Assembly (NCBI RefSeq): GCF_009914755.1
Contig: NC_060925.1
From: the human T2T-CHM13v2.0 reference genome, Homo sapiens
Strand: one strand, 5' to 3'
DNA length: 64,000 nt
In this document: one piece after another, positions 4,327-60,836 of the stretch
Layout of the letters: each line of letters opens with the position of its first letter
Numbering within the stretch: position 1 is the stretch's first letter
Made by a program: the position numbers and the translations under genes
The notes under the pieces: model-generated
Seen by the model: only the letters and a program-made list of their open reading frames with translations
Told to the model about the DNA's origin: nothing
Database searches by the model: none

Positions 4327-5181
<855 letters not shown>

Positions 5182-6563
5182 TCCTTATTTTTAAAACATC
5201 CTTTAATGACTTCCTAATTTTTTTTACCAAGCATTCAAAGCACCAACCCCACCTTTCTGGCACTACAATTTTACCAAACATCTGTAACCAAATCTTCTGA
5301 CACTTGAACTCCAAGTTCCACTCCTGACACTTGAAGTCCAAATTTCATCCCTTTGTGTCCACACTATGTTCTTCTCTGCCTGAAATATTCTACACTTCAT
5401 CTCGTCTTCCTAAAACTCTACTGCATCCTTCAACTTCAGGGTCTGGCTGAAACCATATAAACCCTTCTGTAATGGCATACTTGATCTTTTCCCACTGGGT
5501 TATATTATGTTTATGCAGCTGGAGTGCAGTATCTTTACTGGCTCAGCGATGAACAGTCTTGGTACAAGAACTCAAACTTTTGTTGAATGAATAAAATTTT
5601 GTATGGCTGCTGGTTTTGTTGTTCTCTTGCATTTAAAAAGTCACAAGAAGCATACCAGCATGAACTACTTTTATTTATTTATTTTTTCTGTTTTTTACAA
5701 GCTCTAATTCAATGAGACAAACAGTAAGGGCATCAGAAAAAAAAGGAATCTCAATTCCCAGCTGCCCTCAAAAGGAGGCTTAGACTAAAATAATCAACCT
5801 GAACTCCTACAACACTTAAAGCCAATATGCCATTTAGTTGTATACTATCTTGCATAGTTTTCAATTTTTGATAGTTTTATGTATGTTGTCAACAATCCTT
5901 TCCTAATTTCTCTGACAGCAGAGACATGTCTCATACTTTTCACATACCCTCCTCAGCCCAGTCTGGAAGAATTGTCAAGGAGTTTGCTTTAAGCAGAAGC
6001 AAGTTTGCTCATTTGGAGTTTAATCTTAATAAGAAGATCAAAATTTTCTACTTACACTCTTTCAGTCTGAATGAACCACTATGAAAACATGCAATTTTTC
6101 AAACATGCAATACTATATTATTTTTAAAAGACACTACAGTGACACTCATGAATGAACAAATAATTTAATGCACATTGGGAAGCTTTCACAATACTATTTT
6201 TTCTATCACATCAGAAAGTGCTCCCATAGCACTTTCCACAACATAAGAATGACTTTTCTAGTGGCTTACAAACCCATTCAGCACTTGATACTGTGCTATA
6301 TGTTCATTAGTACTTGTTACAGTCCTGTGTGGCCAATTATATCATTAAAGCTGAAAACAGGCAAAAGAAACCTACTACGATTACACTTAAAAGTAGATGG
6401 TATGAAAAATAAAACACTGACTTGATTTTTTAAAAACGTTAATATATTGCACTAGTGGTATTGACCTCATCAGAAAAGTCAAATAATTATGATGGATAAG
6501 TCATTTGTTGTAGAATAGCAACAATTGGGCTTTACTTCCAAAACGTATCAAGAAAGTGTTCTG

Positions 6564-9894: not shown

Positions 9895-10274
<380 letters not shown>

Positions 10275-11961: not shown

Positions 11962-12084
11962 CTGTACCAGTCAAAAGTCCAGCACTCTTCTTTCGTGCAT
12001 AAGCGCGTAAGTGGTTGGACAGGCTAACAGCACTTGTAAACGTCGTATTGCAATGCACACATGTTCTAAGCTTCACAGGCATAC
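11962..12084 (-). CDS. ZNF644: Putative alternative in-frame cassette exon of ZNF644 (123 nt, 41 aa, atypical zinc finger)
   Basis: Acceptor tttcttttgaatgatag|GT and donor ACAG|gtatgt, phase 1 at both ends, open in the exon-4 frame. Encodes GMPVKLRTCVHCNTTFTSAVSLSNHLRAYARKKSAGLLTGT, similar to the neighbouring LSNHVRGH fingers. Confidence 0.8.
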
Positions 12085-14038: not shown

Positions 14039-14644
14039 CTGAGTGCATAGTCAAGTCCATTTTTTGTGGCTGATACATCAACGGACTATCCTCATTTAAT
14101 GGAAGAACGCATTTCTGAACGAATCTCTTTCTTGCTGTCTGATTATGGATCTTTTGAGGAGAAATAGCAGAATTCCTTTCTTCTCCCATCCTTTTATTTT
14201 TAAGAAGTTCTATGAGTGTAAGAGACTGATTCTTTTTCCCACTGGGCAGTTCTGGTTTTGTTTCATCATATTCATTTAAGAAATTCAGCCCTTCTTCTTC
14301 TGATGCAGACACTGACAGAGCTTCAGTCTTTAGGCCATTACGGTATGCTTCAAGAGGTATAACATTTTGAGATATAAAGTCATCACTTGATGCAAGTTTT
14401 TGAGCTACAAATGGTCTGGGAATAATACGACGACTGTTCAATGCCTTTAAGATTTTTTCATATTTTTCTTCATTTTGCATCATCTCATTCAGAACACAGA
14501 TTGGAGATTTGTGAGCATCCCATTTCGTCTTTCCAAGTCTTTTCAAGTGGCCTCTAACATGATTTGATAATCCAATTTTAGTATCAAACCAACCACCACA
14601 GAGCTGACAAGTGTGTTCAGAAGTGGTTTCAGACTTCTCTATAG
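14039..14644 (-). CDS. ZNF644: ZNF644 exon 4 (606 nt) with WIZ-type finger [21 protein letters not shown]
   Basis: Acceptor tttttctag|CT ATA GAG follows a 181-nt intron (14645-14825) with an in-frame G|CT join. Donor TCAG|gtaaga at 14039. Overlaps the 181-aa ORF in the track. Confidence 0.96.
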
Positions 14645-14825
14645 CTAGAAAAAAATTTTTAAGAGTAATATCAGACTTTCTTATATAAACTGACCACCCT
14701 AAAATGAGTTAATTCTGAAACATAAAATTATGATTCTAATAAAGACTAAATTCAAAAAAAACTTTTAAATCTTCAGAATTAGAACACAGACCTATCAGCC
14801 CAAATCATCCCCATGGAGAACTTAC

Positions 14826-17800
14826 CTTTTCTAACTCGTTTAACAGGTGTTCCTGTGCCAGTTCTTTTGAAATGCTGCATTTTGTCACTTGTGGCTATTT
14901 GTTCTGGTGATACAACATGACGGGCTTCATAGCTTAATCCTGCTCTGTGAAGATGCCCCCTGACATGATTTGATAACCCAACACCTGTTTCAAATGTTGC
15001 TGGGCAGTAAGGACACGATTTCTTCTCAAGAGACAAATCAGTCCAATGAAAAACAGAACTATGCTTTGACAATGAAGCATCTGCAGTTTCTAAATGCTGA
15101 GGATCATGTATCTCATGCAAAAAGTTGTTACTTCCAGTATCTTCATAGTATTCAAAATAAAAGCCATCGTTTTGGTCATAACTAAGAGTAGCATTTTCTC
15201 CAGGCTCCTGACCTTCCACTTTGCTCTTAAATAAAGGGAATAAATTTACATGCTCTTGATTAATATCACTATAGGTTTCATCTTCTATGGCCTGTGTAGT
15301 GTAGTCTCCTAACTCAACATTATCCCAGGAACTTTCATCTTCTGTTTCATAACTATCTTTCTTTTCAGCAGAATTAAGTTTTTGCAAAACGACAACAGTC
15401 ATTTTATGCAAAAAATCTGGATAGCTATCCAAGTCTTCCCCTCCAACAGAACTTTCCTTCTTAGATTCCTTAATTACTCTCTTTACAGCTACACGTCTGT
15501 GATCTTTGAAGCTTTCAGGCCTTTTGGCGTCAGGCTTATGAGGGTCTGAAATAAAATTGTTGTGAGAATTACTTGATGATGAAAACAGGTGTAAAGAATT
15601 TAATGAACTAGCTTCTTCTTTTTTGAAATGCACAGGATATGATTCACCTGATTTTTTGATCATCCTATAGTTTTCATATTTGTGTCTATACAAATAGTGG
15701 CTATTTGCCTTGGCATTAGACTTTTCTTTTGCTGCTTGATGGAAATACTTAGGTTTTTGGTCAACGCTGCTTTTAATTGTAACATTCTTATGAGGAGAGC
15801 TGTTTTGATTGCACATGTTTACACCTGATTGGGCAATGCTTTTCCGAGCTTTCTGTATTCTGTGTGGCCGCTTATGAATTTTTGAAAAACTACTTGATTG
15901 TGAGGTTGATCCAAATGTTCGCTTCACATCTTGTTTTAAAGCAGAGTTCTTTGGAAATGTGGTTGACTGTTGTTTAGTTAATGTTTTAGTGCTATCACTA
16001 TCTACAGGTTCTTCAAGGATGTCATTTTTTCTTTTATCAAGTCCAAGAGGACTACCAAATGAATCAACACATGATGATGAATGCAAGTACTCCGTGTGCT
16101 TTTTTAAAACACTTTTGGCTGAAGTAGTAAAAGGACACATCTTACATATGTAGGTAGCTGATTTTTTGGATGATCCTACTACAGAGTCTTTCATGAAAGT
16201 CTTTTTTTGTGTTTTTCTCTGGGCAATATCAGAAGTGACCATAGGGCATTTTACCACTGCCCCATGTGCAATGCCTCGATGGCATTCCAATTCATTTTCT
16301 GTCACTGCCATGAAGTTACACTCTTCACAGCAGTAGTACCTTTTATCTTTTTCATGGGTTTTAGCATGTTGCACAAATGTTTTAGGGCAATTGGTACCAA
16401 ACACACACTGAGGACACTGTAATCGTGCACTTCTTCCTTCATCCTGAAGTTCTTTCAATTCACGAATTTCCTCCATCAACTTCTGTCTTCTCTCCTGGTG
16501 AATAATCATATGTTTTAGAAGTGAATTGCGATCTCGAAATGTCCGTCCACATTCTCTACAAGCATATGGCCTTGGGACATTAAGATGGCGAAAGTGACTA
16601 TTCCCATCTAAATGATACATCATATGCCTGTGGAGGTGCTTCTTCTCCCTAAAATTCACATTGCACTTTGTACAGGGGTAGAATGATGGCTCTTCGGTAC
16701 TGAAAGTAGCAGGTGACTCAGAATCACTCTCTTCACATTTCTTTTTTAAGGTATTTGAAAGAAAAGTGCTAGTATGAACAGGTGAACTCTCTTCTCCACA
16801 CTTATCTGGGTTATAAATTAGATGTTGGAAGGCATCCACAGATTCTAAGTCTTCATCAGTTGATTCAGGCTTCACTTTTGATAATGCATATTTCTGTGAG
16901 TCTACTGCTTGTAGCTCTTCATTTTGTTCTAGAAAGTCTACTTCTTGCATTTTTGATTTATTGGGTACACAATTAGAATCACTAAAGCAATCCTCGGTAT
17001 AACGAGTTATCTTGCTTACATCCATTTTTCGCTTTCTTTTTTTTTCTAGACCTATTTTAGAATGAGGTGGAGCTTTATCTACTGTTTCCTCATTAGTCAT
17101 AAGAAATTGAATGAACTCTTTTTGGGGATCCCAGTTTGTATCATTTTCTGACCTAAATCCATCTGTACCTGAGGAAATTCCCGTTACTGTATTGACACAA
17201 TCATCTTTCACCAATAAATCTTCACCATCCTCACCCACCTCTACTTGATTTATTAAAGTGCCATCTGACTTTATATTACTCCCTACTGAATTCTGAATGT
17301 CACAACCAACTGAAGCAGAGGTAGGTAGTTTTTTATTGGAATGGGTGGGATTCTTAGCATGTGCTACATCTGATAACAAAAATAAAACTTGGTGTTGACT
17401 TGCTTTCTGTGGTGTAGACAGCTGAAGATCAGCTGCTACCTTCAAAGTTGAACAAGATTCTGTTGTTGGCTGATCCACAGGCTGTCCAGTGGTTAATGAA
17501 ACACTGCCTTTATTCATATTGGAAGTCTTAGTTAAGGAGGAGTGTGAAACTGGTCCATTAACAGCAGCTCCTTTAGGCAAGATAAAGTTTTCACTAGAAA
17601 CAGTAGGAGCACCAGCATGTATAAATAGACTAGACTGGCCTCCACTTAAGGCGTTTTCAGATTTGTCCTTTGACAGTTCTTCAGGCAGAGTCAACGTATT
17701 ATTTTTCTGAAATGATGTTTGACAATCTTTTGGCTTATGAACTCCGCTCTCTTTGTCTGAGATAAAATTGTTGTCATCTAGGAGTTCTTCTTTAGCACCA

Positions 17801-17863
17801 GTAATATCGGTGTTTATCTTCAAATCATCCATATTGTTGGCAAGCCCATTTAACACATTTAGT
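14826..17863 (-). CDS. ZNF644: ZNF644 giant exon 3 (3038 nt): long low-complexity region plus six C2H2-type zinc fingers
   Basis: 1025-aa ORF in the track. Acceptor tttccattttctag|A at 17863, donor AAAG|gtaag at 14826. Fingers include [47 protein letters not shown] and CPYC..HVRGH. Confidence 0.97.
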
Positions 17864-26549: not shown

Positions 26550-26832
26550 GGCCGGGGGCAGTGGCTCACGCCTGTAATCCCAGCACTTTGGGAGGCCAAG
26601 GTGGGCAGATTGCCTGAGCTCAGGAGTTCACGACCAGCCTGGGCAACATGGTGAAACCCCGTCTCTACTAAAATATAAAAAATTCGCAGGGTGTGGTGCC
26701 ATGCACCTGTAGTCCCTGCTACTCAGGAGGCTGAGGCAGCAGCATTGCTTGAACCCGGGAGGAAAGGTTGCAGTGAGCCGAGATCGTGCCACTGCACTCC
26801 AGCCTGGGCGACAGAGTGAGATTCCATCTCAA
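26550..26832 (+). mobile_element. AluS element
   Basis: Full dimer. The tail is replaced by purine microsatellites. Confidence 0.93.
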
Positions 26833-57199: not shown

Positions 57200-57590
57200 T
57201 GTAGTGTGTTCATACAATGGAATATTACTAAAAATAAAACAGCAATAAAAAATAATGAACTGCTGACATAGTCACAACATAGATGAAGCTCAAGAACATT
57301 ATGTTGAATGAAAAAGCCACATACAAGAGTACATACTATATATAAAATCCAAGAACAGGCAAAACTAAATTATGCTGACAGAATTCAGAAAGATGATTAC
57401 TTCAGGGGAAAAGGCTATTAGACTGGAAGCGGGGAAAGCACAAGGAACTTTCCAAAGTAATGAAATGTTCTATATCTTGATCTAGATGGTGGTTACACAT
57501 ATGAATGTGTATGTGAAAAGTCATTCAGCTCTATACCTCAAATTTTATGTTACCATATATATGTAAACTATACCATAATAAAAAAGAAAA
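57200..57590 (+). mobile_element. L1MC/ME 3'UTR fragment
   Basis: catacaatggaatattac...agaacaggcaaaactaaattatg...tgttctatatcttgatc. Confidence 0.7.
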
Positions 57591-58916
57591 AACTACATAT
57601 ATAAGCATGGTGAAAAATAAGGTCAGAATAAGTTAAACCAGTGTCATCCCACAAGCAATATCAAACATAGAAAATCAGAACAAAAGTTTTAACAGACACT
57701 GTATATTCAACTAGAAAACAAACCCTAATAAGACCTTCAAGTACAAAAGAATGGCTTCTTCTCCACTTTAAGAAGATACATAGGCAAGTGTTATTTCTAA
57801 TAAATGCTACAGAAGTAAATTATTATTCCTAAAGAAAAACAGCCCACTATAAAGCAAAAAATAAAATTTTTCTACACAACAAGAGGAGGTACTATAACGA
57901 TCAATAAGGTATGACAAGCACTTAACAGAATTTAGAGCACAATAAGTACTCTTCAAACTACCACTACTGTTATTATTATATAATAGCAATAAAAGCAAAA
58001 TTTTGCTTCAAAACATGCCCAAACCACTGACTGAGATTTCCTTCAGTGCATATTACTGAACTACAGCACTTTTCATCCTAGACTTTTTTTTTCTTTAACA
58101 AACATTGAGATCAGCAAATTTTTGACAGCTGAAACATCTGGTTAGAGGGAAAACCAAGTTAACTCCAATTTTTTCAATGTTCTTTTTCCCTTGTTTCCAT
58201 TTTGAAGCCATATTCACTTACCAATAAATAGTAAATGTATCTTTTTAAAACATGTCAACGGCTTATATTATTAAAAAGCATTCTTTCACATACCAAAGTA
58301 CATGATGCCAATTCAATTTTTTAAAAGTGAACAGCCTTAGAAAGCTAATCAGAATGCTATATTAGAGAGGTCATTCAGTAGAGACACCCACTAGGAAAAC
58401 ATTAAAACAATAATTTACAATTTTGAATACTATATTAACAGAAAGAAATCACAATTTGGCAAATTTATCCCATTTGGGAAAGTGCTTCCTTAACATTAAA
58501 AATGAAGCAAAATTCACAAAAGCAATGACTATTCATATACTTTATCAACAAAGGAGAGAACAATGAAGTGACACAATAAATGTCTTACTGAAGTGGTCAG
58601 AGTTCAATAAGAGTGGCTGAACCAAACATTAACTTGATTTTCTAACATTTTAGAATATTCACTGGAAACTTGAATGCTTTAGTTAACCTCAACACAAAAG
58701 AAGGAAACTAAAAATTTAGTTCCACAATGTGATAGTTATAATTTTACTCCCATCAAATCAACTGGACCAAGTGTGTCAAAAAGTCAATTATTTGCATTTC
58801 AAAATTTTATTTAAAAACTCTTTGGTTCTGAACTCAACACCACATTTTTAAGACATAATTTTTTTGTATTATTCCTACCTTGATATGTACATTTAACAAA
58901 GCAGTCTTCTACTTAC

Positions 58917-58960
58917 CTAGATTTTGTCTTATTAACATCTTGCTGCAAGAACGATCTCAT
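58917..58960 (-). CDS. ZNF644: ZNF644 first coding exon (exon 2), coding part MRSFLQQDVNKTKS+AG; whole exon 58917-58977 including 17 nt of 5'UTR
   Basis: Minus strand reads tttctttcag|GTTTGATTTAATTTTGG ATG AGA TCG TTC TTG CAG CAA GAT GTT AAT AAG ACA AAA TCT AG|gtaagt. The phase-2 end joins exon 3 in frame (AG|A CTA AAT GTG = R L N V) and matches the ZNF644 N-terminus I recall. Confidence 0.93.
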
Positions 58961-60004
58961 CCAAAATTAAATCAAACCTGAAAGAAATACACACAATGAC
59001 CAAGGTTTAATTTTTTGTTTCAGGCATGAATAACTATAGCTACAATACACTATTATTTTAAATGAAAAAACACAAACCAAATTATATTTCTTGATATAAC
59101 ATAAAAAAACCATTCAACCAGAATACCATCATTTTAATCTTTAGGAAACTATTGCTAAGTGCCCCCCAACCTCACTGCTTTTTTTGAGAAATAATAATCT
59201 ATTCAAATGAGAAATTGAAACTAATTCTTTTTTTTAAAAAAAATTCTAAATTGTTTTCATTAATTTTAATAGTATGGCAATGGCAATAATTAAAATAATT
59301 ACTAAAACACACATCTTTCTAGATCAGTATTTATTTAATATTATGTACATATCAAGACACACACCAAACAGCTGAAGACAAAAATGTTATAGTATTGGAA
59401 CACATAAAAGTATATACACATAAAAGTATATAACAAAGTAATTTGTTAGAGCAACCACAGTAATTTCATAATAGCCAACACTGATTACTTACTAAATGCC
59501 AAGCATCATTATTCTAGAGAATAGAATGTATCAATACTCCCCATCTTCAATTTAATCTTTAATCTAGTATAAAGTGACTTCTACACCAACAATCCACTGA
59601 ACATGCATTTGCCAAAAATATATCCACCATTACTAATTTTACCATATTTCAGAACTTCTGAAAACTCAGTATGTCCCACACTCTACATATCTCCTCCTCC
59701 CCATACCTGAAACTAGCTTGTGACTCTTCTAAATTCTCTATTCTTTAAAAAATAGCACCACCACACCTACCTCTGTTCTCAAGCTAGGTTACTTTAACTG
59801 TTTTATTTCCAAACTATCATCTCTGATTTGTCCTTCCTAGAACCACAGACCTAGAATTTTCTGCATCGTATCTAGAAAAGATGAGATATTTTCTCTGCCA
59901 CCCAATGCCATCATCTCCCACCAACCCAGAAGTGGACATGGGGGCCTGTTAAAAACTAAACTATAAAATAAAAGTAAGAACATTAAAAGTCTATTATAAA
60001 CGAC

Positions 60005-60836
<832 letters not shown>

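What the first reader, a model, noticed from the sequence alone, without database searches (positions are those of the whole stretch)
58917..58960. Dual-ATG, dual-frame exon 2: skipping the giant exon changes which start codon is productive
Seen: the main ATG (58960) has a weak Kozak context (TGG ATG A, with T at -3). A second ATG 22 nt downstream (58938, AAG ATG T, with A at -3) is in another frame and reads MLIRQNL plus 1 nt. Spliced to exon 3 it stops at once (MLIRQNLD*). Its phase-1 end is in frame with exon 4, the 123-nt cassette and, by phase, the next exon, while ATG1 then frameshifts (exon 2>4 gives ...KSSYREV*). Recalled: a short isoform of about 105 aa would fit this arithmetic, which needs verifying. 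Inference: one small exon acts as a decoy ORF damping full-length output and also as the start for C-terminal-only proteins.
Basis: partly seen in the sequence, partly recalled or inferred. Interest (0 to 1): 0.7.

Follow-up and report, generated by a model that had tools for sequence, protein, structure and literature searches.

The report
Two-start exon of human ZNF644
A 61-base exon of the human gene ZNF644 carries two start codons in different reading frames, so splicing decides whether the long protein or short tail-only proteins can be made; gene catalogues already list such short forms, so this is largely known.

Summary
Exon 2 (58917-58977, minus strand) holds ATG1 at 58960 and ATG2 at 58938, 22 nt apart in the +1 frame. 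With exon 3 (3038 nt), ATG1 gives 1327 aa and ATG2 only 8 codons. Without exon 3, ATG1 gives stubs of 18-20 codons, while ATG2 reads 307, 348, 146 or 105 aa into the normal C-terminus.

In a published table of all 65,536 start contexts, ATG1 scores 34 (bottom ~3%) and ATG2 scores 115 (top ~3%).

The core is not new. NCBI lists a 105-aa rabbit ZNF644 isoform that starts in the ATG2 frame, in a 54-member cluster. Three fish models show a similar leader.

The 105-aa product carries the zf-WIZ finger. A paper reports that an isoform comprising this finger region pulls down G9a/GLP. The published circZNF644 (exons 3+4, 3644 nt) is the exact counterpart of the linear exon 2>5 join.

The "decoy that damps full-length output" idea is untested and fits scanning logic poorly. 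Initiation at ATG2 and the existence of the short proteins were not shown by any search.

The parts
58917..58977 (-). ZNF644 exon 2 (61 nt): 17 nt of leader, ATG1 and ATG2. All three frames are closed upstream of or across the starts (stops at exon offsets 3, 8, 18 and 43).
58958..58960 (-). ATG1, start of the 1327-aa frame. Context UUUUGGAUGAG scores 34 (31-36), row 63626 of a table sorted by efficiency.
58936..58938 (-). ATG2, +1 frame, leader MLIRQNL plus 1 nt. Context AGCAAGAUGUU scores 115 (106-125), row 2018.
14826..17863 (-). Exon 3, 3038 nt (mod 3 = 2). Whether it is included decides which ATG is productive.
17859..17861 (-). TAA that ends the 8-codon ATG2 ORF on exon-3-containing mRNA. 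A +1-frame ATG follows it directly.
17830..17832 (-). In-frame ATG for Met-26 (context score 72). It is the start of the 1301-1303-aa models common in other mammals.
14039..14644 (-). Exon 4, 606 nt, entered in phase 1, with one C2H2-like finger. It lies 181 nt from exon 3.
11962..12084 (-). 123-nt cassette exon, phase 1 to phase 1, encoding one C2H2 finger.

Best explanation
Exon 2 of ZNF644 is a two-start exon read by leaky scanning, and downstream splicing decides which start is productive.

Shown by sequence:
- ATG1 is the first AUG of the exon 1-exon 2 mRNA. The exon 1 limits are inferred.
- ATG1 sits in one of the poorest possible contexts. ATG2, 22 nt on in the +1 frame, sits in one of the best.
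- With exon 3 present, ATG1 gives the 1327-aa protein and ATG2 gives an 8-codon ORF.
- With exon 3 skipped, or exons 3+4 skipped, ATG2 joins the normal frame of exon 4, the cassette or exon 5. The products are 307, 348, 146 or 105 aa: seven unique residues followed by the normal C-terminus.

Inferred:
- A large share of scanning ribosomes pass ATG1 and start at ATG2.
- The short proteins keep the zf-WIZ finger (ZF8), reported to bind the G9a/GLP SET domains, but lack everything encoded by exon 3. They would therefore bind G9a/GLP without the rest of the protein.
- On skipped mRNAs, ATG1 acts as an overlapping upstream ORF that lowers output and can expose the mRNA to nonsense-mediated decay.
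- The linear exon 2>5 mRNA and circZNF644 (exons 3+4) are counterpart products.

The short isoforms are already in gene catalogues.
For: - Arithmetic and splice sites.
- Start contexts in the reference table of Noderer 2014 (PMC4299517, supplementary file 4): ATG1 scores 34 and ATG2 scores 115; the paper's reference context scores 83 in the same table. The seven rows I looked up rise in row number as efficiency falls, so the table is sorted. That puts ATG1 about 3% from the bottom and ATG2 about 3% from the top of 65,536 contexts.
- With the paper's k = 0.86 and an assumed p = k*E/100, about 2.4 starts at ATG2 occur per start at ATG1 (my own estimate).
- No ATG lies in the 400 nt before the inferred exon 1 donor.
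- Catalogued short form: P0028, 105 aa, 'ZNF644 isoform X8 [Oryctolagus cuniculus]', sources ncbi/uniref/nr, 54 member sequences, begins MLIRQKL and then reads exon 5. The rabbit full-length N-terminus differs from the human one by the single change that converts the human leader into the rabbit one.
- Fish 105/106-aa models begin MAKRQNI (P0035) and MGIPQNI (P0037).
- Among 120 mammalian models longer than 900 aa, 74 have an exon-2-type N-terminus. Of these, 73 keep Asp-Val and 1 has Asn-Val at the ATG2 position.
- The tail matches Pfam zf-WIZ at 64.9 and 80 bits against a cut-off of 27.
- circZNF644 is exons 3+4, 3644 nt = 3038 + 606. Intron 3 is only 181 nt, while introns 2 and 4 are 41,053 and 19,324 nt.
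Against: - No call showed initiation at ATG2, a human exon 2>4 or 2>5 junction read, or a peptide from the ATG2 leader.
- I did not see the human RefSeq or UniProt records for the short forms. Their accessions are recalled, and only NM_016620 was seen, as a ZNF644 accession in a paper's table.
- The ATG2 arrangement arises by chance in 18-25% of controls.
- Database models may simply have been assigned the longest ORF of rare transcripts. The fish leaders could reflect conservation of the main frame alone.
- ATG1 comes first, so every skipped mRNA also makes a stub with a premature stop.
- A circRNA can form by direct back-splicing without any skipped linear mRNA. An inverted repeat pair does flank exons 3-4.
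- Bian 2015 (PMC4365668, passages) maps G9a binding to the ZNF644 N-terminus, not the tail.
- The context scores come from a reporter and ignore mRNA structure.
Confidence: 0.55

Rival explanations
1. Bookkeeping coincidence. Exon-3-skipped transcripts are rare by-products of splicing noise around a very large exon, or of circRNA formation. They are mostly read from ATG1 and degraded. ATG2 happens to be in the right frame, and annotation pipelines gave these transcripts their longest ORF. No short protein of consequence is made.
For: - The chance of such an ATG2 is 18-25%.
- ATG1-initiated stops lie 90-816 nt before the last junction on all four skipped forms.
- No paper in the held library describes the short forms' translation or splicing.
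- ZNF644 was absent from the held supplements of three initiation or small-ORF papers.
- No solved structure matched the tail.
Against: - ATG1 in the bottom ~3% and ATG2 in the top ~3% of contexts is an unusual pairing for a coincidence.
- ATG2-frame leaders joined to exon 5 appear in rabbit (54-member cluster) and in fish models.
- A decayed 90-aa copy with the same leader-exon 5 join exists in an unnamed source (P0042).
- The finger-only isoform binds G9a/GLP when expressed.
Confidence: 0.3
2. Regulatory small ORF. The main role of ATG2 is on the full-length mRNA. It captures ribosomes that leak past ATG1 into an 8-codon ORF. This keeps them from the in-frame Met-26 start (a 1302-aa N-truncated protein), or it tunes output through reinitiation or decay. 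The short isoforms are secondary.
For: - After ATG2 come two more +1-frame ATGs (scores 85 and 83) and then Met-26 (72) within 55 nt.
- The last small ORF overlaps the Met-26 ATG.
- ATG2 is in a strong context.
- The 8-codon ORF stops 3742 nt before the last junction.
Against: - A downstream AUG cannot take ribosomes from ATG1 under linear scanning. The known influence of closely spaced AUGs on each other is recalled, not tested, and is thought to fade at this spacing.
- Stops very close to the start usually escape decay (recalled).
- 34 of 120 mammalian models start at Met-26, so that product is not obviously avoided.
- This reading does not explain why the ATG2 frame matches exons 4, the cassette and 5.
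Confidence: 0.1

Closest known systems
Catalogued short ZNF644 isoforms (NCBI/UniProt models of 105 aa)
   Same: Same leader frame, same exon 2>5 join and same length. Rabbit isoform X8 (P0028) differs from the human prediction by one leader residue.
   Different: Nothing structural differs. What the catalogues and the papers I searched do not state is the scanning logic, the extreme start contexts, or the link to circZNF644. The human records themselves were not seen in any call.
Leaky-scanning mRNAs with two AUG starts (quantitative model of Noderer 2014, PMC4299517)
   Same: A weak first AUG, a strong second AUG and no AUG between them.
   Different: That model treats in-frame downstream starts that give N-truncated proteins. 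Here the second start is out of frame and becomes productive only after exon skipping.
Frameshifted nested ORFs expressed from alternative transcripts (PMC11526972; search listing and a supplement search only)
   Same: An alternative transcript decides whether a second frame within a coding gene is read (abstract).
   Different: In that work the variants bypass the annotated start and give new microproteins. Here both starts sit on one shared exon, and the second frame rejoins the normal frame after 7 residues. ZNF644 is not in that paper's held supplements.
Overlapping upstream ORFs coupled to nonsense-mediated decay
   Same: On skipped mRNAs the ATG1 ORF overlaps ATG2 and ends well upstream of the last junction.
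   Different: The same AUG is the genuine main start on the full-length mRNA. Its effect on the short forms is inferred, not measured.
Exon skipping paired with exon circularisation (circZNF644, hsa_circ_0114427)
   Same: The circle holds exactly exons 3+4, the exons missing from the 105-aa mRNA.
   Different: That the two arise from one splicing event is my inference. The circRNA paper (PMC11223900, passages) does not mention the linear skipped mRNA.

Membership tests
Leaky-scanning dual-start mRNA | The first AUG is in a suboptimal context | tested here: met
   UUUUGGAUGAG scores 34 (31-36), row 63626 of a sorted table of 65,536 contexts
Leaky-scanning dual-start mRNA | The second AUG is in a good context with no AUG between the two | tested here: met
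   AGCAAGAUGUU scores 115; there is no ATG between exon offsets 17 and 39
Leaky-scanning dual-start mRNA | ATG1 is the first AUG of the mRNA | tested here: inconclusive
   No ATG lies in the 400 nt before the inferred exon 1 donor. Exon 1 limits are inferred, and an alternative 5' exon with its own ATG exists.
Leaky-scanning dual-start mRNA | Ribosomes are observed to initiate at both AUGs | not testable with these tools
   No initiation profiling data could be reached. ZNF644 was absent from the held supplements.
Splice-dependent alternative-frame isoform | The second frame is in phase with the downstream exons once the intervening exon is removed | tested here: met
   Products of 307, 348, 146 and 105 aa all end at the normal stop
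Splice-dependent alternative-frame isoform | Skipped transcripts exist | tested here: inconclusive
   Indirect only: the rabbit and fish models, the exons 3+4 circle and the decayed copy P0042. No human junction reads were seen.
zf-WIZ (PF23015) finger proteins | The tail matches the Pfam model above its cut-off | tested here: met
   64.9 bits for the exon 6 part and 80 bits for P0028, against a cut-off of 27
zf-WIZ (PF23015) finger proteins | The whole finger, including its zinc ligands, is present in the 105-aa form | tested here: met
   P0028 residues 35-68 cover profile positions 2-35 of 35. The finger spans the exon 5/6 join. C1263 and H1283 are named.
Decay-prone alternative splice form | The stop lies more than about 50 nt before the last exon junction | tested here: met
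   For ATG1 on skipped forms the distances are 90, 207, 693 and 816 nt. For ATG2 on those forms the stop lies in the last exon. Actual decay was not tested.

The most novel reading that the evidence does not exclude
ZNF644 uses one 61-nt exon as a splice-read frame switch that is conserved from fish to man. A deliberately poor main start lets most ribosomes reach a near-optimal +1-frame start. When exons 3+4 leave as circZNF644, that start makes a 105-aa finger-only protein. This protein occupies the G9a/GLP SET domains without the rest of ZNF644, acting as a natural antagonist of the full-length factor. The circle and the antagonist would then be made in step. The exon 3 disease mutations reported by the myopia papers I read would leave the antagonist intact.
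Probability: 0.15. Interest if true: 0.55.

Novelty: already known. Interest (0 to 1): 0.3.

Why it matters
ZNF644 is a partner of the G9a/GLP histone methyltransferase. It is linked to high myopia and, more recently, to neurodevelopmental disorders.

If the tail-only proteins are really made, several things follow:
- The gene yields both a full-length factor and a small binder of the same enzyme.
- Exon 3 mutations and exon 3 knock-outs would spare the small forms.
- Antibodies raised against residues 50-602 would miss them.
- circZNF644 levels might track their production.

As it stands, the two-start layout is already implicit in catalogued isoforms. The value added here is the measured contrast in start strength and a set of concrete tests.

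Tried and rejected
I took stretches instead.
- Short isoforms with exon 4: of 23 proteins of 110-352 aa found, I fetched 11, and none of the 11 starts in the ATG2 frame. They are genomic read-throughs or internal-ATG fragments. This says little, because 90% clusters hide their members.
- Human retrocopy of the 2>5>6 mRNA: none found. P0042 matched only exons 5 and 6 of ZNF644 itself.
- Solved structures of the tail: 0 hits.
- Rfam over 57500-60500: 0 hits. The only ATG ORF of at least 20 aa near the exon is a 48-aa ORF running from intron 1 into the first bases of exon 2.
- Literature on the short forms, ATG2, exon skipping or initiation: searches found no paper that treats them. One search was mis-specified (it did not require ZNF644) and gave nothing.
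- A search of PMC5757860 for isoform phrases gave 0 hits. The HuRI preprint names ZNF644 only in its reference list.
- Initiation data: the PMC id I tried for a GTI-seq paper is not held. ZNF644 is absent from the held supplements of PMC4299517, PMC5701008 and PMC11526972. Other supplements of those papers may not be held.
- The methods supplement of Olsen 2016, which might say which clone the 'isoform' was, gave no hit.
- Rejected: the idea that ATG2 lowers initiation at ATG1 (see the rival explanations).

Full report
**What is in the sequence.** On the minus strand, exon 2 of ZNF644 (58917-58977) is 61 nt long, with a good acceptor and a TAG|gtaagt donor. ATG1 at 58960 has T at -3 and A at +4. 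ATG2 at 58938 has A at -3. They lie 22 nt apart, so ATG2 is in the +1 frame, and no ATG lies between them. Within exon 2, stops close frame 0 at offsets 3 and 18, frame 2 at offset 8, and frame 1 at offset 43. Nothing that starts further upstream can therefore read into either ORF.

**The exons that follow.** Exon 3 is 3038 nt (mod 3 = 2), exon 4 is 606 nt and the cassette is 123 nt. Exons 5 and 6 lie outside the window. I fetched the flanking DNA of the same chromosome and placed them from the open frames and splice sites. Exon 5 is 103 nt, at window places -5286 to -5388, and exon 6 starts at -6450.

**The arithmetic.** I joined the exons in a script.

| Splice form | ATG1 | ATG2 |
|---|---|---|
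| 2-3-4-5-6 | 1327 aa | 8 codons (stop at exon 3 nt 3-5) |
| 2-4-5-6 | 19 codons | 307 aa |
| 2-4-cassette-5-6 | 19 codons | 348 aa |
| 2-cassette-5-6 | 20 codons | 146 aa |
| 2-5-6 | 18 codons | 105 aa |

The recalled 'about 105 aa' is the exon 2>5 product.

**Is it more than chance?** Not on the human sequence alone. If the ATG1-frame peptide is held fixed and synonymous codons are drawn at random, a +1-frame ATG open to the exon end appears in 25% of trials. It appears in 18% of base shuffles that keep the main frame open.

**Start strength.** The reference table of Noderer et al. 2014 (PMC4299517; passages read, supplementary file 4 searched) scores every context from -6 to +5.
- ATG1 (UUUUGGAUGAG) scores 34 (31-36), at row 63626.
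- ATG2 (AGCAAGAUGUU) scores 115 (106-125), at row 2018.
- The paper's reference context scores 83 in the same table, and Met-26 scores 72.
- The two small +1-frame ATGs after ATG2 score 85 and 83.

The seven rows I looked up rise in row number as efficiency falls, so the table is sorted. ATG1 therefore lies about 3% from the bottom and ATG2 about 3% from the top of 65,536 contexts. I took the paper's k = 0.86 and assumed p = k*E/100; the formula itself is a picture that I could not read. On that basis about 29% of ribosomes start at ATG1 and about 70% at ATG2. These are reporter-derived scores, not measurements on this mRNA. No ATG lies in the 400 nt before the donor that I infer for exon 1.

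**Is it known?** A search with the exon 6 peptide, limited to proteins of 34-111 aa, returned 19 proteins.
- One is P0028, 105 aa, named by NCBI 'zinc finger protein 644 isoform X8 [Oryctolagus cuniculus]'. It stands for 54 member sequences from ncbi, uniref and nr. It begins MLIRQKL and then reads exon 5.
- The rabbit full-length protein (P0044) differs from the human one in the exon 2 peptide by Ser>Thr at the last full codon. That is the single base change which turns the human leader MLIRQNL into MLIRQKL. The two rabbit models therefore read one exon in two frames.
- Three fish entries show related leaders joined to the exon 5 part: MAKRQNI (P0035, znf644a), MGIPQNI (P0037) and a fragment (P0040).
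- Other short models, from a snake and two fish, use other first exons.
- A paper's table lists NM_016620 as a ZNF644 accession, and the myopia papers speak of 'isoform 1'.

That NM_016620 and a UniProt isoform encode the human 105-aa form is my recollection. I saw neither record.

**Mammalian N-termini.** Among the 120 best mammalian models longer than 900 aa:
- 74 have an exon-2-type N-terminus. Of these, 73 keep Asp-Val and 1 has Asn-Val where ATG2 sits.
- 34 start at Met-26.
- 12 have other starts.

Protein data cannot show the synonymous bases that ATG2 and its open frame need.

**What the short proteins would be.** The tail matches Pfam zf-WIZ (PF23015) at 64.9 bits, and P0028 matches at 80 bits over profile positions 2-35 of 35. 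Exon 4 and the cassette each carry a C2H2-like finger, mostly below the Pfam cut-offs. Olsen et al. 2016 (PMC5031922; passages and a supplement table head) report three things:
- C1263A or H1283A abolished the complex.
- GST-ZF8 pulled down the G9a SET domain.

Their clones came from ORFeome collections, but which clone was used was not found. Against this, Bian et al. 2015 (PMC4365668; passages) map G9a binding to the ZNF644 N-terminus. No solved structure matches the tail.

**Are exons 3 and 4 ever left out?** I saw no human junction data. Indirect evidence is as follows:
- circZNF644 (hsa_circ_0114427) is described as exons 3+4 with a 3644-nt spliced length, which equals 3038 + 606. Its 3825-nt span equals 14039-17863.
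- Exons 3 and 4 are only 181 nt apart, between introns of 41,053 and 19,324 nt. They are therefore likely to behave as one unit.
- A 129-nt inverted repeat (79% complementary) has one arm in each long intron. That fits direct back-splicing equally well.
- An unnamed 90-aa protein (P0042) reads as a decayed copy of the leader-exon 5-exon 6 mRNA. The human genome holds no such copy.

**How it most likely works.** On the full-length mRNA the poor ATG1 limits output. Ribosomes that pass it are caught by ATG2 and make an 8-codon peptide. On skipped mRNAs the roles reverse. ATG1 opens an 18-20-codon ORF that overlaps ATG2 and stops 90-816 nt before the last junction, which fits the usual rule for nonsense-mediated decay. 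ATG2 reads through to the normal stop in the last exon. All of this is inference from the scanning model; nothing here measured translation.

**Novelty.** The two-frame use of exon 2 is implicit in catalogued isoforms, so the core is already known. In the held library I found no paper on the short forms' translation, on ATG2, or on the link to circZNF644. ZNF644 is also absent from the held supplements of three initiation or small-ORF papers. The library lacks most subscription journals.

Noticed in passing
L003 6309-6415, minus strand (about 98.3 kb in window terms, outside the window): A possible alternative 5' exon in the CpG island carries its own ATG in a strong context (GCUAAGAUGGC, score 114). 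It runs 107 nt to a CTGAG|gtgagc donor and ends in the same phase as exon 2. A camel model (P0082, 1347 aa) joins the same peptide directly to exon 3. Joined to exon 2 instead, this ORF would stop at exon 2 offset 43, overlapping both ATGs.
   Followed up: partly
window 17830-17863, minus strand: The start of exon 3 holds two TAAATG motifs. The stop of the 8-codon ATG2 ORF is followed at once by a 2-codon +1-frame ORF, and then by a 9-codon one that overlaps the Met-26 ATG.
   Followed up: partly
proteins P0062, P0067, P0068, P0074, P0077 (four named as bat species; I take the fifth, Myotis lucifugus, to be a bat too): These models enter exon 3 in another phase and regain the common sequence just before Met-26, which implies a 1-nt difference early in exon 3. 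The first ~25 residues of ZNF644 therefore look evolutionarily loose. In addition, 34 of 120 mammalian models start at Met-26.
   Followed up: no
window 5053-5181 and 26550-26678; also 5047-5182 and 9937-10072: One inverted repeat pair (129 nt, 79% complementary) flanks exons 3-4, with one arm in each long intron. A competing pair (136 nt, 78%) lies wholly within intron 4. These are probably Alu elements, but the family was not checked.
   Followed up: no
protein P0042 (metaclust, 90 aa): This is a decayed-looking copy of the leader-exon 5-exon 6 reading, with internal losses in the finger. It may be a processed pseudogene in some other mammal. It has no counterpart in the human genome.
   Followed up: partly
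exon 2 joined to exon 6 (L002): If exons 3-5 are all skipped, ATG1 is the start in frame (78 aa) and ATG2 gives 11 codons. That product would lack the first Cys of the zf-WIZ finger.
   Followed up: no
literature: Two papers disagree on which part of ZNF644 binds G9a. Bian 2015 says the N-terminus binds the G9a TAD. Olsen 2016 says the ZF8 tail binds the SET domain.
   Followed up: no
literature; ZNF644 5' leader: A 5'UTR variant of ZNF644 from a neurodevelopmental cohort lowered polysome loading in neurons (PMC12859497, passages). Its position relative to exon 2 was not given in what I read.
   Followed up: no
literature; exon 3: The missense mutations reported in the first myopia study, the two novel variants of the US cohort and the mouse truncation allele all lie in exon 3. 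They would leave exon-3-skipped products unchanged.
   Followed up: no
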